Positions 14,669-29,817 of a stretch of 32,000 nt of DNA are shown here, piece after piece. The stretch is taken from assembly GCA_008080745.1 (NCBI GenBank), contig SHMX01000003.1, forward strand, positions 450,001 to 482,000. The letters are read 5' to 3'. The first letter of the stretch is position 1. The number at the start of each line of letters is the position of its first letter. The notes beneath the pieces are model-generated. The model did no database searches. It was given only the letters and a program-made list of their open reading frames with translations, and had not been told where the DNA came from. Both the position numbers and the translations under genes were made by a program. Source of the DNA: Candidatus Thorarchaeota archaeon. Its GTDB lineage: Archaea > Asgardarchaeota > Thorarchaeia > Thorarchaeales > Thorarchaeaceae.

Positions 14669-15835
14669 TTACTCAACCCCCGCGACCATTTTGGTGGCCT
14701 GTGATGGATGGAACTGTCTAAGTACCTCCAAATAGTGCAACGCTTGACGACTTGGAATCTCTTCTGTATTGTACAAGGTTACAGTTCGATCAATTAGCCA
14801 CTCAGGATAGACCGTGATAACTTCAGGACTGCTCTTTAGCAGAACATGTTGTCTACCTTCTTCATCATTTACGGTAATAACAATACCAGCTTTTTCTAGT
14901 TCTTTTAGCAATTTGCGCAGGCTTCCCTGAGTTATGTCCAGCATACCAAGAAGATCTTCACCAACTTGTGGACCCGCTCTGAGAATCTGAAGCAGGTCAT
15001 AGACCTGAAAATCAAGTAGATACTTTGCTAATTCCTCAGCCTCTGCCCAAATAGTTTCTGAGAGGTCTTTCCGAAGTTTAGCGACATATTCGCGATGATA
15101 GCGCTTTGTAGTCTCCAAGAACTGTTTTGCAACAGTTGTTGGGATTTTACCAGCTTGTACTTTCCTTAAGGTCTCTACAGGTGTCTTCCTGAGAATAAGG
15201 ATTGCACGTGTGAGATAGACAACCTCTGAGGCAAGTCCCTCAACCCAACCTGTCGCAATGATACCCATCTTGACTAAAGGGCGTAGAACCATGTCCACAT
15301 CGATTTTCTTACCCACCTCTTCAAAGATCATTTGTTCCAGGTCCGCGTTTTGTACGGTACCGTTTCGAATCAGGGTCTGAAGAAGAGACCTACGTACAGG
15401 GTCACTTAGAATAGACGCTTGTCGTTGCTCTGGCGTCATCTGAGTGTACCGTGAAATCTGTTTGTATAACTTAGGAACCATCTTGACATACTCATCGTCC
15501 TCCAAATTCAAGAAGATCTGAGTGGCCATCTCAGGAAGAGCATCCTTGTACACATCTGGGTCCTCATCTGGACCAAGTACCAAGAACACCATAGATGGTT
15601 GTCCCTTCAAGTGCATGTTGAGCCCGCCGTAATATACTGCGAGCTTAAACTCATCAAAAGCAAGTGAATTAAATCCGGGCTTCTGTGACTCCTCGGTTTC
15701 ACCAAGAGTTGCAATACCATAGACCCGCATGGACGTAGTTGGGTCTAGACCGATTTGTAGACTCTTTGGCGTCTTGGAGGTAACCACAGGTCCCAGTTCA
15801 TCATCCCATTTTAGAACCGCGAGTCCTTCTGGCAT
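14669..15835 (-). CDS. uDENN/NPRL2-type longin domain plus two winged-helix domains
   Basis: LAVLKWDDELGPVVTSKTP matches the uDENN (F/W)(H/D)xxxGP start. wHTH-like segments ILSDPVRRSLLQTLIRNG and LLGMLDITQGSLRKLLKELEKAGIV. Start placed at Met15 (15835, GGAG upstream); the track start is 15877. Confidence 0.7.
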   Translation of the reverse strand: MPEGLAVLKWDDELGPVVTSKTPKSLQIGLDPTTSMRVYGIATLGETEESQKPGFNSLAFDEFKLAVYYGGLNMHLKGQPSMVFLVLGPDEDPDVYKDALPEMATQIFLNLEDDEYVKMVPKLYKQISRYTQMTPEQRQASILSDPVRRSLLQTLIRNGTVQNADLEQMIFEEVGKKIDVDMVLRPLVKMGIIATGWVEGLASEVVYLTRAILILRKTPVETLRKVQAGKIPTTVAKQFLETTKRYHREYVAKLRKDLSETIWAEAEELAKYLLDFQVYDLLQILRAGPQVGEDLLGMLDITQGSLRKLLKELEKAGIVITVNDEEGRQHVLLKSSPEVITVYPEWLIDRTVTLYNTEEIPSRQALHYLEVLRQFHPSQATKMVAGVE

Positions 15836-16071
15836 CGTTTTTTCTCCATTGTGATATCCGACAATATATGGAGTCATCTCTCGATAGAACTAAGGCCTAT
15901 TACGATAGCTGACCCCTTTAATTAAACCACAATTCTTTGTCCCTAGTGAATTATGAAGTGGTCTAACTGTTGTTCGTTCTGTGTTTCTTGAACAAATATT
16001 CCCTAATAAGAAAAATTCGTACGGATATTACAAAATGGAAATATGCTGATACTTTTACTAGATTATGGTAA

Positions 16072-17238
16072 CTAATTTTTACTCAGAAGTGTTACTAACA
16101 TGTTATTTCCAAAGCCGCCAATGTTATGGGTAAGTCCAATCTCAGGATCATCTACTTGAAGAGATGTAGGATACAATCCACGAAGTTGTAGAACGACATC
16201 TCTGATCTGTGCAATACCAGTAGCTCCAGTTGGATGACCACGAGCTTTGAGACCCCCACTTGGATTGACGGGCATGGCTCCACCAACCTCTGACGTTCCG
16301 TTTTTAATAGAGTCGATTGCCGCCCCTCTATCAGCCAGACCAAGGTCCTCCATGTTGACTAGTTCAAGAATAGAGAATGCATCATGAATCTCACAGACAT
16401 CAACGTTCTCGGGTTCGATTCCAGCCATGGTAAAGGCGAGATTGGCAGCATGAATCGTGGCATAGAAAGATGTTAGTGAGAGACGATGTTGAACAGCATG
16501 GTAATCAGTTCCATGTCCAATACCTATCACTCTGATTGCCTGATCTTTCAATCCTAATTGACGGACCATACTATCAGATGCAATAACAGCTGCAGCCGCC
16601 CCATCTGAAGTAGGACAACTATCATAGAGAGTTAGAGGATCTGCAATAATACGACTGGAGCTTACTTTCTCCACAGTCACTTCCTTCTGGAAGTGTGCGA
16701 GAGGATTCTTCGCCCCATTTCGATGTGCTTTAACAGGGACTAAGGATAGTTCATCACGAGTTAACCCATAATCGTGCATGTATCGCCTTGCGACCATAGC
16801 ACCTAGAGCTGCTGGTGTTGCTCCATAGCGAGTTTCGTTATCATAAGACATCATCTTTGCGAGAATTTTTGATGCAATACCACGTTTAACAGCGGACATC
16901 TTCTCAACACCGATCACCAATACCAATTCAGCAAGCCCGGATGCCACCATTGCATAACCGGTTTCAAACGCGCTGGATCCAGAAGATGGGCCAGTCTCAA
17001 CGCGAGTGGCTCCCGCAGGAACAAGACCTAGCCTGTCAGCAAGCAAGGTGGATAGATGACCCTTTCCAGTGAATTCATCGGGATTTTGAGAGCCTACGAT
17101 AATTCGATCAAAGGGATACTCCAGAGTCTGGGAATCCTCCAGTGCCTCGAAGGCGGCTTGTGTTGCCAAATCCGTAATTCCTTCTTCAAGCACCCCAAAA
17201 GGAGTCATTCCAACGCCAATTACATTCACATCAGGCAT
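16072..17238 (-). CDS. Thiolase-fold protein (archaeal/SCP2-type), atypical active site
   Basis: VIGVGMTPFG, SDGAAA, EIHDAF, NPSGGLKARGHPTGATG and HNIGGFG motifs; the usual E-x-x-C-x-S-G nucleophile motif reads ETGPSSG. Start placed at MPDVNV (17238). Confidence 0.9.
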   Translation of the reverse strand: MPDVNVIGVGMTPFGVLEEGITDLATQAAFEALEDSQTLEYPFDRIIVGSQNPDEFTGKGHLSTLLADRLGLVPAGATRVETGPSSGSSAFETGYAMVASGLAELVLVIGVEKMSAVKRGIASKILAKMMSYDNETRYGATPAALGAMVARRYMHDYGLTRDELSLVPVKAHRNGAKNPLAHFQKEVTVEKVSSSRIIADPLTLYDSCPTSDGAAAAVIASDSMVRQLGLKDQAIRVIGIGHGTDYHAVQHRLSLTSFYATIHAANLAFTMAGIEPENVDVCEIHDAFSILELVNMEDLGLADRGAAIDSIKNGTSEVGGAMPVNPSGGLKARGHPTGATGIAQIRDVVLQLRGLYPTSLQVDDPEIGLTHNIGGFGNNMLVTLLSKN

Positions 17239-17251
17239 ATGCATCCGACCT

Positions 17252-17779
17252 TTACTCAATCAGTATTAGCAAATCAGTAGGGGTGACCATTGAACCAATC
17301 TCAATGTTTACCTCTTTGACTACACCGTCCATTGGAGCCTTGAGTTCATTAAACATTTTCATGGCTTCTAAGATACAAACTGTCTGACCCCCTGAAACTG
17401 AATCTCCCGGAGATACATGAACCTCCGTGATTTTTCCAGGCATGGGAGGATAGACACCACCCTCAGCCTTTGGTCCGCCTTTAGATGCTGTGGGCGTGGG
17501 GGTAACACTCTCCTGACTTTTCAATCGACCCCATTCGAGCTCCCGAGACTCTCCATTGATCTCCAATTCTATCTTGGACCCAGACCGCTTCATTATATCA
17601 ATCTTGTAGTCGGAGGTGGTATCATTTGCGGTCCATGTTCCATCCTCATTTTTTATAGTCTTGATACTGTAACTCTGTTCACCGATCTTAACAATGAGGA
17701 GTCCTCCTTCATCAAGAGTCTTCACATCGACTTCGTATTTCCTATCATCTATCTTTGCTTCGTACTTTGGACTCATCAT
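17252..17779 (-). CDS. Stand-alone biotin carboxyl carrier protein
   Basis: EAMKM biotinylation motif, PPMPGKI, Pro/Ala/Thr linker. Start at 17779 overlaps the upstream stop (ATGA). Confidence 0.92.
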   Translation of the reverse strand: MMSPKYEAKIDDRKYEVDVKTLDEGGLLIVKIGEQSYSIKTIKNEDGTWTANDTTSDYKIDIMKRSGSKIELEINGESRELEWGRLKSQESVTPTPTASKGGPKAEGGVYPPMPGKITEVHVSPGDSVSGGQTVCILEAMKMFNELKAPMDGVVKEVNIEIGSMVTPTDLLILIE

Positions 17780-19356
17780 GGACCCCCCTGTTGTCGCGTT
17801 TTCATCAATCGTTTTCGCCCCACAGAACTCCAGCGAGAGGTTGCTCGTTCCCACTGTCCAGTTAATGTGACCACTCGGCTATCATGCAGGTCTTCCCGAG
17901 CATCTTGACTCCATGCACTACCCAGACCAAAGGAAGTGAGTGCTCCTCCGGCCTGTCTACTGCTATGTAGAACGGCCGCTATCAGGGCAATCTCGTGTTC
18001 TTCTGTAATCTCGCCCATCGTGGTTCTAGCTGCTTTTCTCTTCAAGAAGTCTAGAGCATACTGTGGAAAGAGTGCATACGAGACCAAATCTCGACGGTCG
18101 TGAGGAATATCCTTGAGTGCCTCTTTCGCCGTTGGTAATTCTGGTTCAAGCAGACTTGCAGGTCGTTCTGTGAGGGGCTCTTCATCTCCAATAATCAGCT
18201 TCTTGATCTCGGGGTCAATGGGTGCGGGAGGCCGACCATAGTATCCTCTCACATATTGCTTGACCTCGTGTGGGACCATCTTGTACCGTTCTCCTGTGAT
18301 GACATTCAGGGTGGCCTGGGTGCCAACTATCTGACTGGAAGGTGTGACCAGAGGCGGGTAGCCAAGGTCAGCCCGTACGCGTGGAACCTCTTCCAGAACC
18401 TCATCATATCGATCCAGTGCGCCCTGTTCTCTAAGCTGATTGTCCAGATTAGATAACATACCACCAGGAATCTGAAAGACCAACACCTGTGGATTCACGC
18501 CCTGTAGACTTCCCTCGAACTGTGCATACTTTCTTCGGATATCTCTGAAATAAGACGCAATATCCGCCAGAAGGTTGACATCCAACTTTGTGTCCCGCGT
18601 ATTTCCCTTCATGCTCTCAACAATGGACTCGGTAGCTGGCTGTGATGTTGCTCCAGACAATGATGAGATAGCACAATCAACCACATCAACCCCAACCTCA
18701 GCTGCCTTCAGATATGCCATAGACGCCATACCACTGGTATAATGGGAATGCAATTGTATCGGAATCGATATCTCCTCTTTCAGCCGAGTCACTAACTCTC
18801 CAGCTGCCTTTGGCGTGATCAAACCAGCCATGTCCTTTATACAGATAGAATCGGCCTCTAGAGAATACAACTCTTTTGCGGTCTCAACGAACTTCTCAAT
18901 AGTATGCACCGGAGAGGTGGTATAACTGATACTGGCCTGCGTGTGTCCGCCCTCTCGATTTACAAACTTCATCGCCGCCTCCATGTTCCTGACATCGTTC
19001 AGGGCATCAAATATCCTGAAGATATCTATCCCTGCCTTCACCGCCTCCTCTACAAAGACCTCTAATACATCATCTGGGTATTGCTTGTATCCCACAACAT
19101 TAGAGCCACGAAGAAGCATCTGAAAAGGGGTCTTAGGCATAGCGTCTTTGAGTAGTTCGACTCGTTCCCAGGGATCTTCGTCCAAGAAACGCATCATGCT
19201 ATCGAAAGTAGCCCCACCCCACATCTCAAGGGAGTGGTACCCGACCTTATCGATCTTCTCACAGATCGGAAGCATATGTTCGGTACGCATTCGAGTAGCG
19301 ATAAGAGACTGATGTGCATCCCGAAGGGTAGTATCGGTAATGAGTAATTTCTTCAT
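17776..19356 (-). CDS. Pyruvate/oxaloacetate carboxyltransferase (PycB/OadA/transcarboxylase 5S family), no fused biotin domain, epsilon-like C-terminal tail
   Basis: DTTLRDAHQSL, WGGATFD, IKDMAG, HSH, QIPGGMLSNL, PPLVTPSSQIVGTQA. The C-terminal ~80 aa are not biotinyl-like. Confidence 0.92.
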   Translation of the reverse strand: MKKLLITDTTLRDAHQSLIATRMRTEHMLPICEKIDKVGYHSLEMWGGATFDSMMRFLDEDPWERVELLKDAMPKTPFQMLLRGSNVVGYKQYPDDVLEVFVEEAVKAGIDIFRIFDALNDVRNMEAAMKFVNREGGHTQASISYTTSPVHTIEKFVETAKELYSLEADSICIKDMAGLITPKAAGELVTRLKEEISIPIQLHSHYTSGMASMAYLKAAEVGVDVVDCAISSLSGATSQPATESIVESMKGNTRDTKLDVNLLADIASYFRDIRRKYAQFEGSLQGVNPQVLVFQIPGGMLSNLDNQLREQGALDRYDEVLEEVPRVRADLGYPPLVTPSSQIVGTQATLNVITGERYKMVPHEVKQYVRGYYGRPPAPIDPEIKKLIIGDEEPLTERPASLLEPELPTAKEALKDIPHDRRDLVSYALFPQYALDFLKRKAARTTMGEITEEHEIALIAAVLHSSRQAGGALTSFGLGSAWSQDAREDLHDSRVVTLTGQWERATSRWSSVGRKRLMKTRQQGGP

Positions 19357-19389
19357 TGCAGACCGAGATTCTCTGAAATGGAAGTCTAT

Positions 19390-21068
19390 TTAGTCATTCT
19401 GTTCAGGATTCTGAGAATCATCAAGGGATTTCTTGAATCTCCAGATGGCAACTTCAGACCTGCTGATTCTAAGTTCCTCCCAGATTTTGAAGCGAATCTC
19501 AGATCTTCCGTAATCCTGTTTGATGAGACTTTGAATTAATTCCTTCTCAGACTCACTCATATATCCTGCTTCACTTGATACTTGGGTCATTCTCGATAAG
19601 TGATTCAGTTTCTTCTGACGGCCAGATGCAAATTTGAATAGTGGTAGATGTGCAGCTTTAGGGATATCCTCAACACGATGAATGAGAACTCTGGAATCAG
19701 AGAATTTTGTTGAAAACCCTAGAGAGTCTAGTACTCTTGAGTAGAATTCTCCCTCTGAGGTTGTACTAATCTCTGCCAGCATAGATGTTACTGTGCCATC
19801 ACCATCTGAAACACCTTGAATAAAACAAATTCGAAAATCTTTAGGAGCATCTATAATCCACTCTGCATCAATGTTAGATTTACTTCCTTTGAGTTGAAAT
19901 CCAAGACAACTTCGTTTTATCCAGTTTAATATTGGAGAAGATTCACTAATCCAATTCATTGTATAGGATTCTCTTATTGAGTCATCCCATTCGTAAAGGG
20001 AGATAGAATCAGCTATTTGGTGGGCATTAATTCCAATCCGGCCTAAACAATAACAAAATCCATCGCCAAAGTTTTTACTCCAATCATAGGTCTTTGACAA
20101 GTTCAAAGCAACCCTCTCGACTACACTCTTTCTTTGAAAATAGCCATCGGAACAAATAACTCCAAGAACATATCCTAATGCGTTAGATTTTGATATCTTT
20201 CCAAAACTTCGTGTCCAATCTCTCATCTGCTTTGTTTCAACCGATGATATCTGAGATAATACATATCTAACAGCATCATGATATTTCACTCTAAATGGAA
20301 CCTTAATCCAGTTAGTAAAGCTCTTACCTTTAGTCGAGATCGGAAGCCACATCCAATTATGGGGAGTGGGGAATCTTGGAATCTCACTTGCGAGTCGAGG
20401 AAGTCTAGGTAATTGACATTTGATCCAGTTGTCTACATTCTTCCGATGAGTACACGATATACGAGCAATATCCCTTCTGAGACCTCCTTCTTGGATATGA
20501 GAAAGAAACCTATAGAATTGTTTAGCCATGTCTTCGTGTTTTTTATAGCCATCAAGACGTTTTAATTCGGGGTAAAGAATTGTTGCAATTTCTGTTCCAT
20601 ATCTTCAAATGTTACTGCTCCATTCAACGAATTAATTATTCGTTCATAGTATTTAGACCCCTGTTCTAGAGAGATGGCTTGACCCAGATATCGGTAAATC
20701 TGAGGAAGTTTCTGATAATGAATCCATCCTTCTGCTTTATTCCTTGATAATCCTAATTCTCTTGAGAAAGATCTTAGTTCTTCAGGGGTGATACTAGGAT
20801 TTGTGGTTTTCATTTCGAGTATTTTCAGATATGATTCAGCATCTTCAATCAGTTTGGTAAATTCAGGATGTGACTTCAAACCAGGATATCTTTCCTCAAT
20901 TGTTTCTCTAAGATGCTTGAAGGAATGAAACTCAGTTCCAACAGCTGAGGGATAAGCCATACTAATTTCTCGCTGATCTCCACGACCATCTCTGACTTTT
21001 TGATGGGAGGGAGTATTATCTTCTAACCTGCCAGAATCAGCTTGGTCAAATTCCATGACATTGTTCAT
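19390..21068 (-). pseudogene. Frameshifted free-standing LAGLIDADG endonuclease-like gene with N-terminal HTH repeats (track ORFs 20562..21068 and 19390..20529 joined)
   Basis: Two LAGLIDADG motifs (LGYVLGVICSDGY; FIQGVSDGDGT). A -1 shift at ~20570-20575 joins the ORFs and restores a second YPxLK...WI...LP repeat; ~559 aa if joined. Confidence 0.7.
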
Positions 21069-21193
21069 TCCTATTGACTGAATTTATTCCTTTGATTTTA
21101 TATGATTCATACTATATATTATCCCAACACAAGAAATCTAATTTATAATTACTTTAACAGCTATGTTTTTGACCGAATGACAGCTTCGATCAA

Positions 21194-22405
21194 GTGGTGA
21201 ATCCTATGCAAGTCCGACATGCAAAACTACAGGACAGAGATGAGCATCTCAAAAATGCAAGGTATGCCTATAATATACCAGCATCGTATGAGGAGACTCT
21301 GCGTGAGCGATTCGAGAAGCATCTAGACCAATACTATTGTGTAGTTGAAAATGATAGTGTGCGGGCAAGTGGGAGGGTCATCCCCTTCAAACAAAATATA
21401 CGAGGAGTTCTCAGGTCAATGGGAGGTATCGCAATGATATCCAGCGCTCCTGAGACCAGACGACAAGGTTATGTTCGAGAACTGATGCGGTTCATGCTTA
21501 GCGATATGAATCAACGAGATATGAGCTTCAGTACTCTCTATCCATTCAAAGATGAGTTCTATGCTCGGTTGGGATATGTACCAATGCCACCATTTCACAA
21601 GCTTCAGCTTCGGGTGGACCTCATGATTAGATGGGAGATTCCTGAGGGGTATTATCTCAAGAAAATGTCAATTGTTGACGGGCTAGAATATGCGAAAATA
21701 ATCCACCGAGAAGCTATCACGGGAATTCATGGCACAGTAGTCAAATCTGATGAGAGATGGGAAGAATATGCTATGAGTAAAGACCCAGAGTATGTCTTTG
21801 CCTTCAACTCAGACGGAAGACCCATCGCGTTTATGAGATATGGAATTCAACACTATGGTGCGTTCAGGGACGATGACAAGAATGGAAGGATGGATATCAG
21901 CCAGTCCGGTATGTTTTGGAGTGACCGAATAGGAAAGAACATGCTCCTAAACTACATTCACAACCATGCAGATCAGGTGGTCACAGCAAATATTCCCATT
22001 CATTCCATCGACAAAGACTATTGGCACTGGACACAACGCTTCAATATTGGAGGTGTTAAGATTCAGGCGTACAATGTTGCTATGGCAAGAATCGTCAACG
22101 TTGAGAGGTTGCTAGTAGGTATTCCTTCTGATGTTGAAGGAGATCTGACTGTGCAGGTGAAAGATTCAATCTGCAAATGGAACGAAGACACCTTCACATT
22201 CAGCTGCGATGGAAAGAAACTCGATATAGATAAGACAGACGATAAGGCGTCTGTGGAAATATCCATCGAGGGGCTTACCAGTCTAGTATTTGGTACCGCA
22301 TCTTTGGAGACCATTACTGAACTGAAACAGATAACTGGCGATGGCGCTAATATTCTGAACGATTGGTTCTCTCCAATCACACCATGGTTTACAGAAGATT
22401 TCTAG
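21194..22405 (+). CDS. eis: Eis-like GNAT acetyltransferase with C-terminal SCP2-like domain
   Basis: GGIAMISSAPETRRQGY, TLYPF..FYARLGY, SCP2-like region (GLTSLVFG) and terminal PWFTEDF. Confidence 0.85.
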   Translation: MVNPMQVRHAKLQDRDEHLKNARYAYNIPASYEETLRERFEKHLDQYYCVVENDSVRASGRVIPFKQNIRGVLRSMGGIAMISSAPETRRQGYVRELMRFMLSDMNQRDMSFSTLYPFKDEFYARLGYVPMPPFHKLQLRVDLMIRWEIPEGYYLKKMSIVDGLEYAKIIHREAITGIHGTVVKSDERWEEYAMSKDPEYVFAFNSDGRPIAFMRYGIQHYGAFRDDDKNGRMDISQSGMFWSDRIGKNMLLNYIHNHADQVVTANIPIHSIDKDYWHWTQRFNIGGVKIQAYNVAMARIVNVERLLVGIPSDVEGDLTVQVKDSICKWNEDTFTFSCDGKKLDIDKTDDKASVEISIEGLTSLVFGTASLETITELKQITGDGANILNDWFSPITPWFTEDF

Positions 22406-23529
22406 TCCTCGGATATAACAAGCGGTTCTAGGTCTTCCAAACCAGGAAAGGAAAGATAGTCTCTATCACCAACAAATTCGGAGAGGATTACTTTCTGAAT
22501 GTATTTTGCACTACGACGTCTACCTGTAGTAAAAGGATCAGCTGCTCCAAGAGGAATAGCCAACACCATGAGGCTCAGGTATATCCAATTCGTCAAAGAA
22601 GCTGTCACATCGGACATGGTTGCTTGGATTGTACCTATCAATAGAACCAGAACTATCAAAAATAAAGCTAGGATTATAAGATTCAATTTTACCTTCATTG
22701 AGAACTCTGATTTTGGAAGACTCCAGCTGGAGGAAAATAGTGGGGAGAAGTCTCTTTTTAGTTGGATAGGTTGTGACTCGGAGTAAAAATCCTGCTCAGT
22801 TTGATCAAATGAGGTCACAGGAGAATCATGGAGATGTTCATCCGTACCTCTGAATATGTCACCAACTCTGCCAGGTATATTCAGAAGTCGAGCATAGGCA
22901 ACATCTGCAATTTTATCATCAGACAAGAAAATCCTATTCTGCAGAATTTCCAGACATACTTTCGCATAGACAGAGGGAAATTCCGGACCATACTTCTCTT
23001 TAGCCTTTTTCAGAGAATCTCCAATCCCAAGCATTGATTTAGGAAATTTTGGTATGTTCTTCTCACCTATAGGAAAAACAACGTAAACCCACACAAAACC
23101 GATTATCGCGAGAGCTAGAAAAGAATAGTCCAGAATTCCAAGATATAACGGAATCAATCCCGCGGTGAACAAAAGAAATGCAGTGATGATCCCATACGAA
23201 ACTCCGCGAAAGTATGCTTTTACTATCAGTAGTCCAGAGATTATTCCAATAGAGCAAGACATCATAAGAAGATAGATTTCAGCCATTGGAAAAAGAAGAA
23301 GATCAGCATATGTACTATTGAATAATGATAGTATCAAAAATATTCCAAAGATAACAGAACAGAGAGCCATTATAATATTGTATAAGACGATTCCTCTTCT
23401 CTTGAGAAAGCTGATAGGTCTGGTGAAATGAAGTTCAGGATAGAGATGCAGAGAAATCCTAGTTATAGAAGAGATAATGATGAGAATAATTACAAGAACA
23501 GGGAAGATTGCTTTTGTAAACTCAAACAT
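22402..23529 (-). CDS. Hypothetical polytopic membrane protein
   Basis: About five N-terminal hydrophobic helices, a soluble middle region and two C-terminal TM helices. The stop overlaps the eis stop by 4 nt (convergent). Confidence 0.7.
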   Translation of the reverse strand: MFEFTKAIFPVLVIILIIISSITRISLHLYPELHFTRPISFLKRRGIVLYNIIMALCSVIFGIFLILSLFNSTYADLLLFPMAEIYLLMMSCSIGIISGLLIVKAYFRGVSYGIITAFLLFTAGLIPLYLGILDYSFLALAIIGFVWVYVVFPIGEKNIPKFPKSMLGIGDSLKKAKEKYGPEFPSVYAKVCLEILQNRIFLSDDKIADVAYARLLNIPGRVGDIFRGTDEHLHDSPVTSFDQTEQDFYSESQPIQLKRDFSPLFSSSWSLPKSEFSMKVKLNLIILALFLIVLVLLIGTIQATMSDVTASLTNWIYLSLMVLAIPLGAADPFTTGRRRSAKYIQKVILSEFVGDRDYLSFPGLEDLEPLVISED

Positions 23530-23696
23530 CTATAGATGACTCCATAAGTTTCATAGACTCAACGAGCATAAACATTTACGTGTTCTATAACAAGTCGTTT
23601 GTTATAACATTCAATGGATATTCCACTACAATTATAGATTCGATTGGCAATAGTAATAGTAGAACTACAATAGGATGCAAGAGGATAGATATCTCC

Positions 23697-25646
23697 ATGA
23701 GTAAAGACGATTTTCAGGAGTGCATGGAGGAGAAGCTAGAGAGGGCTCATGACTTAGTATATTATGGAGACCCATCAGAAGCATTGGATAATCTGGATAG
23801 GCTGGAAGAGGAGGAACTTGAGAAAAGAGATATTTTAGAGATTTCGATTCTAAGACAGAGAATTGCCATCAAATTAGGAAAATTCAGAGATACGCTGAAA
23901 CATCTTGAAAGCTTGGAGAAACATCATCTTGTTCTAGAATACCCAGAACTACAATTGGAGGTAGTAGCTAACAAAGCAAGGGCCTTGTTGAAGATGGGTC
24001 AACTTGACATTGCTCTTCTCGAGTTGAAACGAGCGAGAGAAGCCATTGAAAAGATAACGTCAAAACGATTTAGAGATATGCAAGAAGCTGAGATTCTATT
24101 TGATCTCGGGCTTGTGTATTATGTTGCAAGAGAATGGAATCAATCTATAACACATCTGAAAGATAGCATCGAGCTGCATAGAAAGATAGGGAAAGATAAT
24201 CGAACTGGCCCAGCACTCAATATTCTTGGGATAGTCTATATGATGCAGGGAAACCTTGAGAAGGCACTGGATTACTTTCATGAATGTCTGATGATATCAG
24301 AGAGAATCAATGCTAGTGGAGGGGTCTCTACTGCATTAAACAACATTGCAGAGGTACACCGACTCAGAGGTGATTTATCCTTTGCACTTCATTACTTTCA
24401 ACAAAATCTCGAATTAAACAAAATACAGGATAGAAGAATCAAACAAGCAATCAGTCTAATGAGTGTCGCTAGTGTGCTTGCTGAATTAGGCCGACCACAA
24501 GAAGCTCTCGAATTATACAAAGAAGCAGAAACACTTGCGAAGAAATGTGAAGACCCCCAAAAGACAGCAATCAGTATCTATGAAACGACTATACTTGCCC
24601 TTGAGAATAATTGGATGGATGAGGCCAAGAGATCTCTTGAGAAACTAAAGCAGCTAGCCCAGCAATACGATCTGCAGGATATAATTACACAGACCACGAT
24701 AGCAGATGCTATTATGCTAAAACAAAGTTCAAGAATTGTTGACCATGCTCGAGCCCAAGAGATGTTAGAAAGAGTTGTTGCCGATGAAAAAACAACATAT
24801 GAGAAACGGATTTTCGCGATGTTTCATCTCTGTGACCTCCTGCTATTAGAGTTGAAGTTGAATCAGAGTTCTGACGTTCTAAAAGAGATCATCGAAATTG
24901 TGACCAAACTCAAACGATTGGCGCACGACCAAAACGCATATCCAACATTTTTGAAGGCTAAAATTATTGAGGCAAAACTACACCTCATTGAGCTAAAGCC
25001 AGAGCTCGCAAAGGTCACAATCGAGAGAGCTAGAAAGATAGCTGAAGAACATGGACTTACAAAATACATTGAGATAATTCGTGAAGAGGAGAAGGTAATT
25101 CAGAACCAGATGTCACGATGGACCTTATTGAAATCAAATGATGCATCCCTTGAAGAGAGGATTCGATTAGCAAATATCGATGACGCAGTTACGCTGATGC
25201 TTAGACGGCAGCTTGTTGATATGGCAGATATGGAGAATGAAGAGCCGATTATGCTCCTCATCATTGCAGTAGAGAGAGGACTGAGTGTCTATACTAAGAA
25301 GTTTATTCCAGAGGATAAGACCAATGAGATGGCGATTGGAGCATTCATCACTGCGATAAACAGCTTTCTACAAGAGAGTCTGGAAGTTTCTGGAATTGTT
25401 GAGAGAATCAAGCATAGTAATTACACCCTTATTATGAAACAGGTAGAGGGGTTGCTATTCTGCTACATGTTCAAAGGAGAGTCGTATTCCTCCACTCAGA
25501 AATTGAACACCTTCATTGATTTTTTAAAGAGATACCAAAAGATCTGGCAGTATCTGGTAACGGCTAGTAAAGCCCTGGATAAGGATTCTGTAAAGATTCT
25601 AGAGAAGAAGACAAAATCACTCTTTGTTGAAGGTGTAATGACATGA
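23697..25646 (+). CDS. TPR-repeat protein with C-terminal longin/roadblock-like domain
   Basis: Tandem TPRs (ALNILGIVYMMQGNLEKALDYF; ALNNIAEVHRLRGDLSFALHYF); C-terminal PIMLLII..RGLSVYTKKF...AIGAFITAINSF. Start placed at MSKDD (23697); the track start is 23580. Confidence 0.85.
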   Translation: MSKDDFQECMEEKLERAHDLVYYGDPSEALDNLDRLEEEELEKRDILEISILRQRIAIKLGKFRDTLKHLESLEKHHLVLEYPELQLEVVANKARALLKMGQLDIALLELKRAREAIEKITSKRFRDMQEAEILFDLGLVYYVAREWNQSITHLKDSIELHRKIGKDNRTGPALNILGIVYMMQGNLEKALDYFHECLMISERINASGGVSTALNNIAEVHRLRGDLSFALHYFQQNLELNKIQDRRIKQAISLMSVASVLAELGRPQEALELYKEAETLAKKCEDPQKTAISIYETTILALENNWMDEAKRSLEKLKQLAQQYDLQDIITQTTIADAIMLKQSSRIVDHARAQEMLERVVADEKTTYEKRIFAMFHLCDLLLLELKLNQSSDVLKEIIEIVTKLKRLAHDQNAYPTFLKAKIIEAKLHLIELKPELAKVTIERARKIAEEHGLTKYIEIIREEEKVIQNQMSRWTLLKSNDASLEERIRLANIDDAVTLMLRRQLVDMADMENEEPIMLLIIAVERGLSVYTKKFIPEDKTNEMAIGAFITAINSFLQESLEVSGIVERIKHSNYTLIMKQVEGLLFCYMFKGESYSSTQKLNTFIDFLKRYQKIWQYLVTASKALDKDSVKILEKKTKSLFVEGVMT

Positions 25647-25697
25647 TAATGCCTAACTGGTGTATCTTATATACAACCTAATTTGTAATTCAAAAAT

Positions 25698-27674
25698 ATG
25701 AGCGAACAGAGAGTTATCCGGCAGATGAAATGGGACATCAGCCCTGAGCAAATGCATATGAATGCTGAAAGGACAATCGAGACTGTTAGAAAACAGCTTG
25801 ATGACATTGCTAGCACACCAGCTGGAGATGAAAACCTTGAAACACTCTTACAGTTCGAAGAGGCTTTTGCATCGGTGCGAGAAACCTGTGGTCCAATAGA
25901 GTTTCTAAAGTATGTGTCAACAGACAAGAATCAGCGTGATGCCGCTGATGAGATTGAGAAAGAAGCACAGAAGTTTGTAAACGAGATGTGGAGCAGAAGT
26001 GACCTATACAAAGTTCTTGTCAGATTGGAACCGCAAATGGATGATTTTGATGATGAGGAGAAGCTCCTGCTTCAACGGACCCTTGAGGAGTTTCGTCATC
26101 GAGGTGCAGCACTAGAGAAAGATAAAGGAATGGAATTTCTGGAGATTGCTAATAATATCTCCGTACTTCAATCGGAATTTAATAGAGTTCTAAATGAGGT
26201 CACTACAAAGGTACCTTGTACCGAAAAAGAGCTAGAGGGAGTTCCAAAGCAGGTGTACGAAGAACTTGAGGTGGTTGATGATAAGTACCAATTGCCTCTT
26301 GATTATCCTGTTTACTTTGCTGTAATCAAATATGCAATGAATCCTGATACCCGGAAACGAATGATGATTGCATTCCTACAACGCGGAGGGGAGGATAATA
26401 AGGAAAAGCTTGAGGATGCCCTAGCATTACGAGAACGTCAATGTAAACTACTAGGACACTCGAATTTTGCAGAATACGAGATAAAGCGGAAGATGGCCAA
26501 GACACCAGAACGTGTTCAGACATTCTTGGAAGATCTCAAAGTGAAACTTGCACCGTTGGCGGAGAAAGAGATGCAGGTCATGGCAGAGATGAAGGCTAGG
26601 GACTTGGAAATTCCTGTGAACGATGTCAAGTTAGAACCCTTTGATTTGTTCTACTATAATGAACTCATATTGAAAGAGAATTATCAGATCGACCAAAACG
26701 AGATCAAAGAATATTTTCCCATGTCCACCGTTGTACAGGGAGTTCTAGATGTCTATCAGACTGTCTTAAACCTTCGATTTGAGGAGGTAGAAGATGCAAA
26801 TATCTGGCATGAGGATGTTCGAGAGTTTCAGGTATATGACAAAGTATCTGGAAATCTAATGGGTGTGTTTTACCTAGACCTTTATCCCCGGGATGGAAAG
26901 TTCAAGCACTATGCAGTTTTCAACTTTCTAGATGGAAGAGTAAAGGATGGTCAGAGATTACTACCTATTACGTCTATGGTCGCCAACTTCCAAAAACCTT
27001 CCAAGACTCAACCATCACTTTTGACACATAGTGAAGTTGAAACATTCTTTCATGAGTTTGGGCACCTAATGCATGTAATTACTGGCAAGGCTAAGTTCGC
27101 TCGATTTGGATTGGAGGGTGTACTTCCTGATTTCATTGAAGTACCCTCTCAGATGTTAGAGAATTGGGCGTGGAAGGAAGAGGTACTAGAACTACTATCG
27201 GGACACTACAAGAATCCCGAGAAGAAATTACCCAGTGAGGTGCTCAAAAAGATGATTGAAGCAAAATTGCTCAATGTTGGATGTTTCCAGTTGCGACAAG
27301 TATTCTATGCTTCAATAGATATGTTGTATCACACAAAAGAAGTAGAAGATACAACTCAAGCATTTTTGAATCTCTTTAAAGAGATAACCAAATTTGACCT
27401 TATGGAGGATACAACTCCAGAGGCTAGCTTTGGACACATAATGAGCAGTTATGCTGCAGGATACTATAGCTATCTCTGGTCAAAGGTCTATGCAGAAGAC
27501 CTTTTCACCAAGTTCGAGAAGAATGGGTTTATGGATGAAAAGACCGGACTCGAATATCGGGAAACAATTCTCGCACCAGGTGGAAGCAGGGATCCTGATG
27601 AAATGGTGATCGAGTTTCTGGGCCGAGAATCCAACAATAAGGCGTTCTTGAAATCTCTAGGAATCGGAGAGTAA
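25698..27674 (+). CDS. M3A oligopeptidase (thimet oligopeptidase/neurolysin-like)
   Basis: FFHEFGHLMH zinc motif, DLYPRDGK, DFIEVPSQMLENW, SFGHIMSSYAAGYYSYLWS. Confidence 0.93.
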   Translation: MSEQRVIRQMKWDISPEQMHMNAERTIETVRKQLDDIASTPAGDENLETLLQFEEAFASVRETCGPIEFLKYVSTDKNQRDAADEIEKEAQKFVNEMWSRSDLYKVLVRLEPQMDDFDDEEKLLLQRTLEEFRHRGAALEKDKGMEFLEIANNISVLQSEFNRVLNEVTTKVPCTEKELEGVPKQVYEELEVVDDKYQLPLDYPVYFAVIKYAMNPDTRKRMMIAFLQRGGEDNKEKLEDALALRERQCKLLGHSNFAEYEIKRKMAKTPERVQTFLEDLKVKLAPLAEKEMQVMAEMKARDLEIPVNDVKLEPFDLFYYNELILKENYQIDQNEIKEYFPMSTVVQGVLDVYQTVLNLRFEEVEDANIWHEDVREFQVYDKVSGNLMGVFYLDLYPRDGKFKHYAVFNFLDGRVKDGQRLLPITSMVANFQKPSKTQPSLLTHSEVETFFHEFGHLMHVITGKAKFARFGLEGVLPDFIEVPSQMLENWAWKEEVLELLSGHYKNPEKKLPSEVLKKMIEAKLLNVGCFQLRQVFYASIDMLYHTKEVEDTTQAFLNLFKEITKFDLMEDTTPEASFGHIMSSYAAGYYSYLWSKVYAEDLFTKFEKNGFMDEKTGLEYRETILAPGGSRDPDEMVIEFLGRESNNKAFLKSLGIGE

Positions 27675-27675
27675 G

Positions 27676-28088
27676 TTAGCTGAAGTAGAGTACGAATGGG
27701 TTCATCAAGAGCCCATTGGTACTCAAGTCTGATTTGTATGCGGAGTATATCCGAATTCATATGTTCGCCTATTCAGCATTTGATTTTTTCACACCTCCTG
27801 TACTCCCAATCCACGTATCTGATGAAACAACCGAACCGATTATCGAGCTCAGGGACACGCTCAGAATTTCCTCCCTGATTTTTTTCAAATCGAATTCAAT
27901 CAGATCATAGGAGCGTAGAAACTCTGGAGTTTACTGGTGATGACCTACGATTCTGCTAGCTTGGTATCGTGGTCGACATTCAGAATCTCAGGAAGGTTGG
28001 CCGACCTCACCAAGATACTGAATGAAATTCCAAGTTGATGGATTTTATCACAAAACAGACCCATCTCCAAAGAACCCAATATCACCAT
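27676..28088 (-). pseudogene. Possible degraded gene remnant in a 600-bp gap between convergent genes
   Basis: Protein-like but interrupted minus-strand frames: 28088-27945 (MVILGSLEMG...KLAES*) and 27930-27676 (TPEFLRSYDLIEFDLKKIREEIL..., with internal stops). Confidence 0.25.
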
Positions 28089-28224
28089 GTGAACCTAATA
28101 TGGACTATATTTAGGTCCTGTATGATCCGTTTGCAAACGGAAATACCAGGTTATGGAATATTGATTGGACATGGCTAAAATTCGCAGGAAGCTTAGGTAT
28201 ATAAGTTTTAACAAAAATTAACCT

Positions 28225-28248
28225 GAGGAGGGAGAAGTTCCCTCGCTC
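28225..28248 (-). terminator. Hairpin downstream of the pccB-like gene
   Basis: GAG-GAGGGA-gaagt-TCCCTC-g-CTC (9 bp, one bulge), about 21 nt after the stop; TTTTT follows on the minus strand. Confidence 0.55.
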
Positions 28249-28269
28249 TTGGTTTACTGTATCTAGGTA

Positions 28270-29817
28270 CTACAATGGAATATTGCCATGTTTCTTTGGA
28301 GGGCGTGTCTGACGCTTGGTTGAGAGAATATCAAGACCCTGACAAATGAGTTTGCGAGTTTCATGCGGAAAGATGACCTTGTCAATATAGCCTAACCCTG
28401 CAGCAATATATGGATTAGCAAACTTCTCTCTGTAATTTGCGACTAATTCAGCTTTCTTGGCAACCTTATCCTTGGCCTTTGCCAGCTCTTTTCGGAACAC
28501 AATATTGATAGCTCCATCGGGACCCATCACAGCAATCTCAGCAGTAGGCCAAGCATAGACCTGATCTGCTCCAATATGACGAGAAGACATGACATCATAT
28601 GCCCCACCATATCCCTTTCGTGTGATGATGGTAATCAGAGGAACTGTAGCCTCTGCATAAGCATACAAGATCTTTGCACCATGACGAATGATTCCACCCC
28701 ATTCCTGTTCAGTACCCGGAAGATATCCAGGCACGTCCATGAAGGTAATAACGGGTATATTAAAGGCATCACAGAATCTGACAAAACGTGAGCATTTATC
28801 GGATGCGTCAATGTTAATGGTTCCGGCCAAATGAGCGGGATTATTTCCAACTATTCCAACTGAACGTCCGTCAAATCTGGCGAATCCAACAGTCATGTTT
28901 TTGGCCCAATGCTCATGAACCTCAAAGAATTCTCCATTATCCACAAGTTTTGTAATGACCTCACGCATATCATAGGGTTTGTTTGGATCCTCGGGAACAA
29001 CGTCGTCAATGGATTCGTCAACATCATCAGGAGAATGTCCTGTATCAACTCGTGGAGGATCCTCCATGTTGTTGCTTGGAATATAACTGAGTAGTGTTCG
29101 AAGTTGGGCGATACACTCGTCCTCATCCTCACTAGCAAAGTGAGACACTCCGCTGACCGAGTTATGGGTCATAGCTCCACCTAACTCCTCAAAGGATACT
29201 TCTTCACCAGTCACGGTCTTGATCACCTCTGGACCGGTGATGAACATATGAGAAGTTTCTTTGACCATGAAAGTAAAGTCTGTCACTGCTGGGCTATAGA
29301 CAGCGCCACCAGCACAGGGTCCCATGATGGCAGAGATTTGAGGGATAACGCCGCTAGCATGGGTATTTCTACGGAAAATCCAACAGTAGCTGGCAAGTGA
29401 TTTGACACCCTCCTGAATACGTGCTCCACCACTGTCATTGAACCCAATGACAGGAGCCCCGGTCTCTAATGCCATATCCATGACTTTGCAAATCTTGAGA
29501 CCATACATCTCAGCCAGTGAGCCACCAAAGACGGTGAAATCCTGACTGAAGACAAAGACTTTGCGACCATTCACAGTACCATATCCGGTAATAACACCGT
29601 CACCTAGAATGGTCTTTTCATCCATACCAAACTCGGTCTCTCGATGGACAACAAATTCATCAATCTCGACAAAGGAACCAGGATCGAGGAACTTCTCGAT
29701 TCGTTCTCGAGCCGTATATTTACCCTTGTCATGCTGGCGTTTAATTCGTGCCTCTCCACCAGCTTTCAATAATTCTTCACGTTTTCTTTTTAGCTCTTCA
29801 AAACCGTCTTTGGTCAT
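28270..29817 (-). CDS. pccB: Acyl-CoA carboxylase carboxyltransferase beta subunit (PccB/MmdA/transcarboxylase 12S family)
   Basis: [53 protein letters not shown] and terminal KKHGNIPL. Confidence 0.95.

What the first reader, a model, noticed from the sequence alone, without database searches (positions are those of the whole stretch)
17252..29817. Possible archaeal methylmalonyl-CoA:pyruvate transcarboxylase (12S+5S+1.3S)
Seen: PccB-type CT, PycB/OadA-type CT without a biotin domain, and a free biotin carrier, all on the minus strand. There is no biotin carboxylase and no Na+-pump beta subunit in the window. Known: this three-part set defines the ATP-independent Propionibacterium transcarboxylase of the Wood-Werkman cycle, whereas archaeal pyruvate carboxylase has the biotin domain fused to PycB. 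Inference: propionate/succinate fermentation or amino-acid catabolism by transcarboxylation. The 9-kb gap between the two CT genes weakens the link.
Basis: partly seen in the sequence, partly recalled or inferred. Interest (0 to 1): 0.6.

Follow-up and report, generated by a model that had tools for sequence, protein, structure and literature searches.

The report
Asgard archaeal biotin transcarboxylase gene set
A Thorarchaeota (Asgard archaeon) genome encodes the three parts of an ATP-independent methylmalonyl-CoA:pyruvate transcarboxylase and nothing else that could load or unload its biotin; the reading holds up well, but it was already proposed for Asgard archaea in 2020 and has never been tested biochemically.

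Summary
On the minus strand lie a PccB/12S-type acyl-CoA carboxyltransferase (28270-29817), a PycB/OadA/5S-type pyruvate carboxyltransferase without a biotin domain (17776-19356), and a free 175-aa biotin carrier (17252-17779; its start overlaps the 5S stop).

The genome is 98% complete. It has no biotin carboxylase, no OadB/MmdB pump subunit and only this one biotin carrier. None of 81 Thorarchaeia genomes has a biotin carboxylase, while 67 have the 5S-like gene.

The 9-kb gap is a local insertion. In related genera the order is 12S-5S-BCCP with no gap. In other Asgard families one cluster reads epimerase-biotin ligase-12S-5S-BCCP-mutase-MeaB. Here the ligase, epimerase, mutase and MeaB lie 2-10 kb beyond the window, in the same order and on the same strand.

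The transcarboxylase reading is therefore well supported (about 0.85). The direction of flux is open.

It is not new. Imachi et al. 2020 scored this trio in Asgard genomes and named a "transcarboxylase" BCCP and biotin ligase.

Details added here:
- The 5S-like protein is closer to fused PycB/OadA than to Propionibacterium 5S.
- It has a conserved 80-aa C-terminal tail.
- The BCCP has an N-terminal beta-barrel.
- A thiolase-fold gene that lacks the nucleophilic cysteine is co-operonic.

The parts
28270..29817 (-). 12S/PccB-type acyl-CoA carboxyltransferase (515 aa), the methylmalonyl-CoA/propionyl-CoA half-reaction
   Evidence: Pfam Carboxyl_trans E 2e-200. TIGR01117 mmdA 860 bits, below its 998.8 cut-off. 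Best solved relatives are PccB-type hexamers, about 708 bits; P. shermanii 12S scores 603 bits. Asp408 aligns with S. coelicolor PccB Asp422 in GGAYD and is invariant in 24 homologues. This is the only native copy: the second Carboxyl_trans hit is on a 2.4-kb contig with 63% GC.
17776..19356 (-). 5S/PycB/OadA-type pyruvate:oxaloacetate carboxyltransferase without a biotin domain (526 aa)
   Evidence: NF006761 PycB profile positions 1-452 of 591, 743 bits; NF008984 (5S equivalog) 535 bits, cut-off 827. PDB: 5ks8_C 548 bits, 2nx9 524 bits, 1rqb (5S) 434 bits. The motifs LRDAHQS, IKDMAG and LHSHYTSG align with their counterparts in all three alignments shown. It is the only PYC_OADA gene in the genome.
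17779..18018 (-). Conserved C-terminal tail of the 5S-like protein (aa 447-526): an amphipathic helix (E-x-E-x-A-x-IAAVLH) followed by two W-x-x-AGR motifs. Proposed, not shown, to be a tether to a partner subunit.
   Evidence: In 31 homologues A457 and W509 are invariant; G448, E453, L463, W482 and W502 are nearly invariant. No Pfam family matches. The AlphaFold model gives helix 452-468 at pLDDT about 60 and the rest below 50.
17252..17779 (-). Free biotin carboxyl carrier protein (175 aa): N-terminal 8-strand beta-barrel, disordered linker, biotinyl domain with EAMKM
   Evidence: Biotin_lipoyl E 1.7e-18. The ATG at 17779 overlaps the 5S stop. It is the only biotin carrier in the genome; the other two Biotin_lipoyl hits are an E2 lipoyl domain (confirmed by Pfam) and a weak hit in a 135-aa open frame, probably a GcvH-type protein. 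Model pLDDT 77: barrel aa 4-84, linker 86-100, biotinyl domain 101-174. The biotinyl domain reaches Z 13-14 against the P. horikoshii BCCP, PC-beta and the 1.3S carrier. The whole model aligns over 149 residues to yeast ACC BT-BCCP (5csa_B, Z 12.1, rmsd 13.8). Weak ACCA_BT hit at aa 5-41, E 5e-4, below cut-off.
16072..17259 (-). Thiolase-fold protein lacking the nucleophilic cysteine. It overlaps the BCCP stop by 8 nt and is co-operonic with 5S and BCCP across Thorarchaeia. Role unknown.
   Evidence: Thiolase_N and Thiolase_C_1 domains. ETGPSSG replaces EAACASG of the archaeal thiolases 7yvy and 6esq, so Cys becomes Pro. The change is conserved in four other genera. The order 5S-BCCP-thiolase-like is found in G005, G006, G009 and G024.
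19390..28269 (.). Roughly 9-kb insert between 12S and 5S; not part of the system
   Evidence: Genes present: two ORFs with no family, GNAT+SCP2, one ORF with no family, a TPR protein and an M3 oligopeptidase. None of them lies between 12S and 5S in genus g5, where the two genes abut, or in g6 (gap 0.6-2 kb).

Best explanation
The three genes encode an ATP-independent biotin transcarboxylase that works like methylmalonyl-CoA:pyruvate carboxytransferase (EC 2.1.3.1).

Proposed mechanism: the 12S-like hexameric carboxyltransferase moves the carboxyl group of (S)-methylmalonyl-CoA onto the biotin of the free carrier. The carrier swings to the metal-dependent 5S-like TIM-barrel subunit, which passes the carboxyl group to pyruvate to give oxaloacetate. 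The reaction can also run in reverse.

Links to the rest of metabolism: the epimerase, the B12-dependent mutase with MeaB, and either a succinate CoA-transferase or succinyl-CoA synthetase connect it to succinate. A fumarate reductase/succinate dehydrogenase, fumarases and malic enzyme complete a Wood-Werkman-type loop.

What is shown: the gene set, intact catalytic motifs, the biotinylation motif, the absence of any other carboxybiotin donor or acceptor, and conserved clustering with the methylmalonyl-CoA genes.

What is inferred: that the subunits assemble; that the 5S tail and the BCCP beta-barrel act as tethers; that the acyl-CoA substrate is propionyl-/methylmalonyl-CoA; and the direction of flux. 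I lean slightly (about 55:45) towards propionate formation as an electron sink during peptide fermentation rather than propionyl-CoA assimilation.
For: (1) All three components are present with intact active-site or biotinylation motifs.

(2) In a 98%-complete genome there is no Biotin_carb_C and no OAD_beta. The three weak ATP-grasp hits are accounted for: two are RimK-like and Mur-ligase-like by Pfam, and the third lies in the open frame that one search places in succinyl-CoA synthetase beta. There is one PYC_OADA gene, one native acyl-CoA CT and one biotin carrier, so each CT is the only possible partner of the other.

(3) Class-wide counts in 81 Thorarchaeia genomes: BC 0/81, no credible OAD_beta, 5S-like 67/81 (23/24 high-quality genomes), 12S-like 70/81.

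(4) Across 151 Asgard genomes, BC occurs in 41 and the 5S-like gene in 46. They co-occur in only one genome, which has 9% contamination. The search therefore does detect BC in this phylum, and the 5S-like gene is not used with it.

(5) Synteny: 12S and 5S lie on the same contig and strand in about 35 genomes and are contiguous in genus g5. Other families carry the cluster MCE-BPL-12S-5S-BCCP-MCM-MeaB. In this genome BPL, MCE, MCM large subunit, MeaB and the MCM B12 subunit follow in the same order and strand, 2-10 kb past the window end.

(6) Other pathway genes are present: FrdA/B-like, succinyl-CoA synthetase, an AcetylCoA_hydro-type CoA-transferase, class I and Lyase_1-type fumarases, and malic enzyme.

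(7) The same inference was published for Asgard genomes (PMC7015854). NCBI names several Thorarchaeota homologues of the 12S-like protein 'methylmalonyl-CoA carboxyltransferase'.
Against: - There is no biochemical evidence for any archaeal transcarboxylase.
- The proteins fall below the curated equivalog/subfamily cut-offs for the 5S and MmdA/12S models. The 5S-like protein is closer to PycB and OadA.
- The genome is a draft of 19 contigs, so a missing gene cannot be strictly excluded.
- No malate dehydrogenase of the Ldh_1 or Ldh_2 families was found. The oxaloacetate-to-malate step of a classical Wood-Werkman cycle is therefore unaccounted for.
- Acyl-CoA specificity rests on one conserved Asp and on gene context.
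Confidence: 0.85

Rival explanations
1. The two carboxyltransferases are halves of ATP-dependent carboxylases (two-subunit pyruvate carboxylase and propionyl-CoA carboxylase). Their biotin carboxylase would be missing from the assembly or too divergent to detect.
For: The 5S-like protein scores best against PycB models and the two-subunit PC beta chain 5ks8_C. The 12S-like protein scores best against PccB structures. The genome is a draft of 19 contigs.
Against: Biotin_carb_C was not found in any of 81 class genomes, including single-contig ones. The same search finds it in 41 other Asgard genomes and in 13 of 14 control genomes. The weak ATP-grasp hits are RimK-like, Mur-ligase-like or succinyl-CoA synthetase. 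BC and the 5S-like gene are almost mutually exclusive within the phylum.
Confidence: 0.03
2. They are biotin-dependent decarboxylases (oxaloacetate and/or methylmalonyl-CoA decarboxylase). They would use an unrecognised membrane subunit, or a soluble route, to discharge carboxybiotin.
For: High scores against OadA models (TIGR01108 693 bits, NF008985 702 bits) and the MmdA model (860 bits). The BCCP resembles MmdC-type carriers (NF047903, NF004173).
Against: No OAD_beta in this genome. In 81 class genomes the only hits are a 61-aa, 33-bit fragment and a 19-bit hit. All OadA and MmdA equivalog scores are below their cut-offs. The cluster contains no membrane protein but does contain mutase, epimerase and MeaB.
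Confidence: 0.04
3. It is a transcarboxylase, but with a different or broader acyl-CoA pair, for example oxaloacetate plus acetyl-CoA giving malonyl-CoA plus pyruvate. That would supply malonyl-CoA without ATP.
For: PccB-type enzymes of archaea are often promiscuous (general knowledge, not tested here). The genome has no ATP-dependent acetyl-CoA carboxylase. A thiolase-fold gene is co-operonic.
Against: The Asp at the position of PccB D422, which favours propionyl-CoA, is invariant. The conserved cluster holds methylmalonyl-CoA epimerase, mutase and MeaB, not malonyl-CoA users.
Confidence: 0.07

Closest known systems
Propionibacterium freudenreichii subsp. shermanii methylmalonyl-CoA carboxytransferase (12S + 5S + 1.3S; PDB 1on3, 1rqb, 1dd2)
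   Same: The same three-part logic: a hexamer-type acyl-CoA CT, a TIM-barrel pyruvate CT without a biotin domain, and a small free biotin carrier. There is no ATP-grasp subunit and no pump. The 5S metal-site and substrate motifs are conserved. The biotinyl domain matches the 1.3S carrier at Z 12.9.
   Different: These are not orthologues. 5S scores 434 bits against 548 for PC-beta and 524 for OadA. The NF008984 score is below its cut-off. The carrier is 175 aa with a folded N-terminal beta-barrel; 1.3S is recalled as 123 aa with a short N-terminal peptide. The 5S-like protein has an extra conserved 80-aa tail. In Thorarchaeia a Cys-less thiolase-fold gene is added to the operon.
Two-subunit pyruvate carboxylase PycA/PycB (Methanocaldococcus; Methylobacillus flagellatus, PDB 5ks8)
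   Same: This is the closest sequence relative of the 5S-like protein: 548 bits, aligned 1-446 without gaps.
   Different: PycB carries a C-terminal biotinyl domain and needs the PycA biotin carboxylase. Here the carrier is a separate gene, and BC is absent from the genome and the class. The nearest non-Asgard cluster representatives (52-59% identity) are 600-670 aa and carry a fused biotinyl domain.
Na+-translocating oxaloacetate and methylmalonyl-CoA decarboxylases (OadABG; MmdABCDE)
   Same: OadA-like and MmdA-like catalytic subunits and an MmdC-like carrier.
   Different: There is no beta (pump) subunit anywhere in the genome or the class.
The 'propionate' gene set of Asgard archaea in Imachi et al. 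2020 (PMC7015854)
   Same: The same trio (methylmalonyl-CoA decarboxylase alpha, BCCP, pyruvate carboxylase B) was used to score propionate metabolism. [quoted passage not shown]
   Different: That work is a comparative-genomic inference without enzyme-level analysis. The passages read do not mention the absence of BC/OadB, the operon structure, the 5S tail, the BCCP barrel or the Cys-less thiolase-fold partner; the full paper was not read.

Membership tests
Methylmalonyl-CoA:pyruvate transcarboxylase (functional class, EC 2.1.3.1) | Acyl-CoA carboxyltransferase of the 12S/PccB type | tested here: met
   Carboxyl_trans E 2e-200. The Asp at PccB position 422 is conserved.
Methylmalonyl-CoA:pyruvate transcarboxylase (functional class, EC 2.1.3.1) | Pyruvate/oxaloacetate carboxyltransferase lacking its own biotin domain, with the metal-site motifs intact | tested here: met
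   HMGL-like plus PYC_OADA only, no Biotin_lipoyl. RDAHQS, KDMAG and HSH motifs align with 5S, OadA and PC-beta. About 120 homologues have the same architecture.
Methylmalonyl-CoA:pyruvate transcarboxylase (functional class, EC 2.1.3.1) | Separate small biotin carrier with the AMKM lysine, and a biotin ligase | tested here: met
   175-aa BCCP with EAMKM. BPL_LplA_LipB plus BPL_C gene about 2 kb past the window end.
Methylmalonyl-CoA:pyruvate transcarboxylase (functional class, EC 2.1.3.1) | No biotin carboxylase and no decarboxylase pump subunit available to the carrier | tested here: met
   for this genome (98% complete). for 81 class genomes.
Methylmalonyl-CoA:pyruvate transcarboxylase (functional class, EC 2.1.3.1) | Genes co-located with each other and with the methylmalonyl-CoA epimerase and mutase | tested here: met
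   Contiguous in related genera. One cluster in other Asgard families. Stretched but collinear in this genome.
Methylmalonyl-CoA:pyruvate transcarboxylase (functional class, EC 2.1.3.1) | ATP-independent carboxyl transfer from methylmalonyl-CoA to pyruvate; a stable 12S-5S-carrier complex | not testable with these tools
   Needs an enzyme assay and a structure.
Propionibacterium-type 5S subunit (NCBIfam NF008984 equivalog) | Score at or above the curated cut-off (827 bits) | tested here: not met
   534.8 bits. The protein is closer to PycB/OadA.
MmdA/12S subfamily (TIGR01117) | Score at or above the curated cut-off (998.8 bits) | tested here: not met
   860.3 bits.
Two-subunit pyruvate carboxylase (PycA/PycB) | PycB with a fused C-terminal biotinyl domain, plus a PycA biotin carboxylase gene | tested here: not met
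   The profile match stops at position 452 of 591 and the carrier is a separate gene. No BC was found.
Na+-pumping biotin decarboxylases (Oad/Mmd/Gcd) | Integral membrane beta subunit (OAD_beta, PF03977) | tested here: not met
Acyl-CoA carboxylase epsilon-type small subunit (AccE/PccE/PccX), considered for the 5S tail | Recognisable match to the family profile | tested here: inconclusive
   The tail alone and 31 full-length homologues returned no small-subunit family from Pfam, at thresholds up to E 5. Whether this Pfam copy holds a model of that family was not checked. The resemblance is at motif level only (a lead from an earlier scan note and from my own reading).
BT (BC-CT interaction) domain of biotin carboxylases, considered for the BCCP N-domain | Eight-strand beta-barrel preceding the BCCP, matching PF21385 | tested here: inconclusive
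   PF21385 E 5e-4, 20 bits, below its 27-bit cut-off. The model is an 8-strand barrel. 5csa_B BT-BCCP aligns over 149 residues at Z 12.1 but rmsd 13.8. The barrel alone matches only generic barrels at Z 7-8.

The most novel reading that the evidence does not exclude
The Asgard enzyme is an independently assembled transcarboxylase holoenzyme that arose from a PycB/OadA-type protein by fission of its BCCP. It would be held together in a new way: the conserved 5S C-terminal tail (amphipathic helix plus two W-x-x-AGR motifs, reminiscent of the epsilon subunits of acyl-CoA carboxylases) docks on the 12S hexamer, and the BCCP's BT-like beta-barrel anchors the carrier. In Thorarchaeia a Cys-less thiolase-fold protein would be a fourth, functionally coupled component.
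Probability: 0.2. Interest if true: 0.6.

Novelty: new member of a known kind. Interest (0 to 1): 0.35.

Why it matters
If the enzyme works as inferred, Thorarchaeia and at least two other Asgard families carry out all their biotin chemistry without ATP. They would link pyruvate/oxaloacetate to propionyl-/methylmalonyl-CoA by transcarboxylation. That bears on models of the fermentative, syntrophic metabolism of the closest archaeal relatives of eukaryotes, and on whether propionate is one of their products.

It would also be the first archaeal transcarboxylase, apparently built from PycB/OadA-type parts rather than inherited from the bacterial 5S lineage. The physiological idea is already published, so the remaining value is a defined, compact gene set for reconstitution and structural work.

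Tried and rejected
- Complex prediction of the 12S-like protein with the 5S tail (aa 440-526) gave no verdict (score 0.01). It counts neither for nor against binding.
- Pfam scans of the tail alone and of 31 full-length homologues, at thresholds up to E 5, found no small-subunit family. An ESM Atlas search with the tail returned nothing usable.
- A frameshifted PycB-BCCP fusion was considered, because the two ORFs overlap by 79 nt as first listed. I rejected it: the carrier starts at an ATG that overlaps the 5S stop, and the 526-aa form with its tail is conserved in about 120 homologues.
- The second Carboxyl_trans gene, on contig C19, was considered as an alternative partner. I rejected it as contamination: a 2.4-kb contig, 63% GC against about 42%, 66% identity.
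- The three weak CPSase_L_D2 hits were checked. They are RimK-like, Mur-ligase-like and the open frame assigned to succinyl-CoA synthetase beta, not biotin carboxylases.
- A literature search for the haloarchaeal PccX small subunit found no relevant paper in the library.
- Malate dehydrogenase of the Ldh_1 and Ldh_2 families was sought and not found.
- A FastTree of 92 cluster representatives shows the Asgard unfused proteins as one supported clade. Fused and unfused forms are interspersed elsewhere (at least 14 changes), so the tree does not identify a specific ancestor.


Full report
WHAT IS THERE

The window is part of contig C3 (450001-482000) of a 3.16-Mb, 19-contig genome estimated at 98% complete and 4.8% contaminated. 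The closest homologues of its proteins are named Thorarchaeota, so the organism is an Asgard archaeon.

Four overlapping or nearly contiguous genes lie on the minus strand:
- A PycB/OadA/5S-type carboxyltransferase, 17776-19356, 526 aa.
- A biotin carboxyl carrier protein, 17252-17779, 175 aa.
- A thiolase-fold gene, 16072-17259.
- A PccB/12S-type carboxyltransferase about 9 kb upstream, 28270-29817, 515 aa.

The carrier ORF as first listed (to 17854) is over-extended. The real start is an ATG whose last two bases and the next base form the TGA stop of the 5S-like gene. The carrier's stop overlaps the thiolase-fold start by 8 nt. The three genes are therefore probably translationally coupled.

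The 5S-like protein matches the PycB profile only over positions 1-452 of 591, and the carrier matches positions 469-590. That could suggest a frameshifted fusion. However, about 120 homologues are all roughly 526 aa, cover 100% of the query and have no biotin domain. The split is real.

ARE THE PARTS FUNCTIONAL?

5S-like protein. It aligns without gaps to the Methylobacillus PC-beta chain (548 bits), to Vibrio OadA (524 bits) and, less well, to P. shermanii 5S (434 bits). It keeps the motifs that hold the metal ligands and substrate-binding residues: LRDAHQS, IKDMAG with the lysine that is carbamylated in those structures (from my knowledge of them), and LHSHYTSG.

12S-like protein. It is a typical PccB-type enzyme, about 708 bits to PccB structures and 603 bits to the 12S subunit. 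Asp408 aligns with Asp422 of S. coelicolor PccB in the GGAYD motif. That residue is known to favour propionyl-CoA (recalled from Diacovich et al. 2004). It is invariant among 24 homologues.

Carrier. It has the EAMKM biotinylation motif.

IS THERE ANY OTHER DONOR OR ACCEPTOR FOR CARBOXYBIOTIN?

No. The genome has no Biotin_carb_C domain and no OAD_beta. The three weak ATP-grasp hits are accounted for: two are a RimK-like and a Mur-ligase-like protein by Pfam, and the third lies in the open frame assigned to succinyl-CoA synthetase beta.

There is one PYC_OADA gene and one biotin carrier. The other two Biotin_lipoyl hits are an E2 lipoyl domain and a weak hit in a 135-aa open frame, probably a GcvH-type protein. 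The second Carboxyl_trans gene sits on a 2.4-kb contig with 63% GC and is a contaminant. The only closed catalytic cycle available to the biotin is therefore transfer between the two carboxyltransferases.

COMPARATIVE TEST

In 81 genomes of the class:
- Biotin carboxylase: 0/81.
- OAD_beta: no credible hit.
- 5S-like gene: 67/81 (23 of 24 high-quality genomes).
- 12S-like gene: 70/81.

Across 151 genomes of the phylum, biotin carboxylase occurs in 41 and the 5S-like gene in 46. They occur in different families and meet in only one genome, which has 9% contamination. This is an internal positive control for the search. It shows that the 5S-like gene is not used as a pyruvate carboxylase subunit in these lineages.

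SYNTENY

Coordinates show 12S and 5S on the same contig and strand in about 35 genomes:
- Directly adjacent in one genus (for example G005).
- 0.6-2 kb apart in another genus (G006, G009).
- 2-25 kb apart elsewhere.

ORF comparison confirms the order 12S-5S-BCCP-thiolase-like. The genes in this window's gap have no counterparts there: two ORFs with no family that an earlier scan note reads as a frameshifted LAGLIDADG/HTH gene, a GNAT-SCP2 protein, an unknown ORF, a TPR protein and an M3 peptidase.

In three other Asgard families the cluster is larger. It reads MCE-BPL-12S-5S-BCCP-MCM large-MCM small-MeaB, or the same set in the order MCM-MCE-BPL-12S-5S-BCCP.

In this genome the same genes follow on the same strand just beyond the window:
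- Biotin ligase at C3:483913-484710.
- Epimerase, mutase large subunit, MeaB and the B12-binding subunit at C3:488.6-492.1 kb.
- A second mutase gene next to a corrinoid adenosyltransferase about 26 kb further on.

The window thus holds a stretched copy of a conserved methylmalonyl-CoA module.

REST OF THE PATHWAY AND DIRECTION

The genome also encodes:
- An FrdA/FrdB-type flavoprotein and iron-sulfur pair.
- A second FrdA-like gene next to a class I fumarase.
- A Lyase_1 enzyme near the first Frd.
- Succinyl-CoA synthetase.
- An AcetylCoA_hydro-type CoA-transferase fused to a GNAT domain.
- Malic enzyme.

No Ldh_1- or Ldh_2-type malate dehydrogenase was found. The oxaloacetate-to-malate step is therefore open; a route through aspartate or malic enzyme is possible.

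Sequence cannot tell whether the module makes propionate (a Wood-Werkman loop acting as an electron sink) or feeds propionyl-CoA from amino acids into succinyl-CoA. Imachi et al. favoured fermentative propionate formation and noted that the set is incomplete for syntrophic propionate oxidation.

HOW IT COMPARES WITH WHAT IS KNOWN

Functionally it is the Propionibacterium 12S/5S/1.3S design. By descent it is not.
- The 5S-like protein falls below the 5S equivalog cut-off (535 against 827 bits) and the 12S-like protein below the MmdA cut-off.
- The nearest non-Asgard cluster representatives (52-59% identity) are 600-670 aa and carry a fused biotinyl domain.
- In a tree of 92 representatives the Asgard unfused proteins form one supported clade among fused forms.

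A fission of a PycB/OadA-type gene is the simplest reading, but the tree does not resolve the ancestor.

Three features differ from the textbook enzyme.

First, the 5S-like protein ends in a conserved 80-aa tail: an E-x-E-x-A-x-IAAVLH helix and two W-x-x-AGR motifs. The model predicts one helix of moderate confidence followed by low-confidence segments. An earlier scan note likened the tail to the AccE/PccX epsilon subunits. I could not confirm that with profiles, and the complex prediction gave no verdict.

Second, the carrier has a folded N-terminal eight-strand beta-barrel. It has a weak, sub-threshold ACCA_BT match. The whole model also aligns to the BT-BCCP unit of yeast ACC. This suggests an anchoring domain but does not prove one.

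Third, the co-operonic thiolase-fold protein has Pro in place of the nucleophilic Cys. The change is conserved in five genera. Its role is unknown.

NOVELTY

Imachi et al. 2020 (PMC7015854) scored 'propionate' in Asgard genomes by exactly this trio. [quoted passage not shown] NCBI already names several Thorarchaeota homologues of the 12S-like protein 'methylmalonyl-CoA carboxyltransferase'.

The finding is therefore a well-supported new member of a known kind, not a discovery.

VERDICT

- Observation: confirmed.
- Interpretation: supported.
- Confidence in transcarboxylase function: about 0.85.
- Interest: moderate to low (0.35), because the idea is published and no biochemistry exists yet.

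Noticed in passing
window 16072-17259 (-): The thiolase-fold gene co-operonic with 5S and BCCP has ETGPSSG where archaeal thiolases have EAACASG, so the nucleophilic Cys is replaced by Pro. The change is conserved in five Thorarchaeia genera. The protein is closer to true archaeal thiolases (7yvy, 292 bits) than to the Cys-less aldolase Ltp2 (6ok1, 114 bits).
   Followed up: partly
G000 contig C19 (locus L006, 2448 bp): A 2.4-kb contig with 63% GC carries a second PccB-type carboxyltransferase that is 66% identical to the window's. It is almost certainly bacterial contamination of the bin and should not be counted as a paralogue.
   Followed up: yes
G014:C10:102394-110013; G015:C209:26176-30057; G066:C100:6785-9350; G044:C63:7114-7649; G012:C67:11913-12149: Several Thorarchaeia genomes carry strings of truncated 3' fragments of the 12S gene, covering the C-terminal part of the Carboxyl_trans profile. 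Where an intact copy is on the same contig (G015, G066, G044, G012) they lie a few kb from it; in G014 they lie on the contig that carries the 5S gene, and the intact 12S gene is on another contig. In G015, and by position in G014, the fragments fall in the stretch between 12S and 5S. This suggests repeated insertion or duplication events at this spot.
   Followed up: no
G028:C4:48777-50246: In one relative the 12S-like gene is interrupted by TGA stops (three inside one matched piece, two in another). It may be a pseudogene or an assembly error.
   Followed up: no
window 14669-15877 (-), and L014:11400-12605, L015:10739-11941, L016:2138-3301: The 402-aa ORF with no family lies directly next to the thiolase-fold gene in at least four genera. 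The two modules are therefore conserved neighbours.
   Followed up: no
G000:C2:550989-554450 (L025:904-2790, -): The only AcetylCoA_hydro-type CoA-transferase in the genome, a candidate succinate:propionyl-CoA transferase, is fused to a C-terminal GNAT acetyltransferase domain (628 aa).
   Followed up: no
whole genome G000 and same-genus G077: No malate dehydrogenase of the Ldh_1 or Ldh_2 families was detected, although fumarases, Frd/Sdh and malic enzyme are present.
   Followed up: partly
window 19390-21068 (-): Two ORFs with no family hit (379 and 168 aa) lie directly upstream of the 5S-like gene and are absent from the compact clusters of relatives.
   Followed up: no
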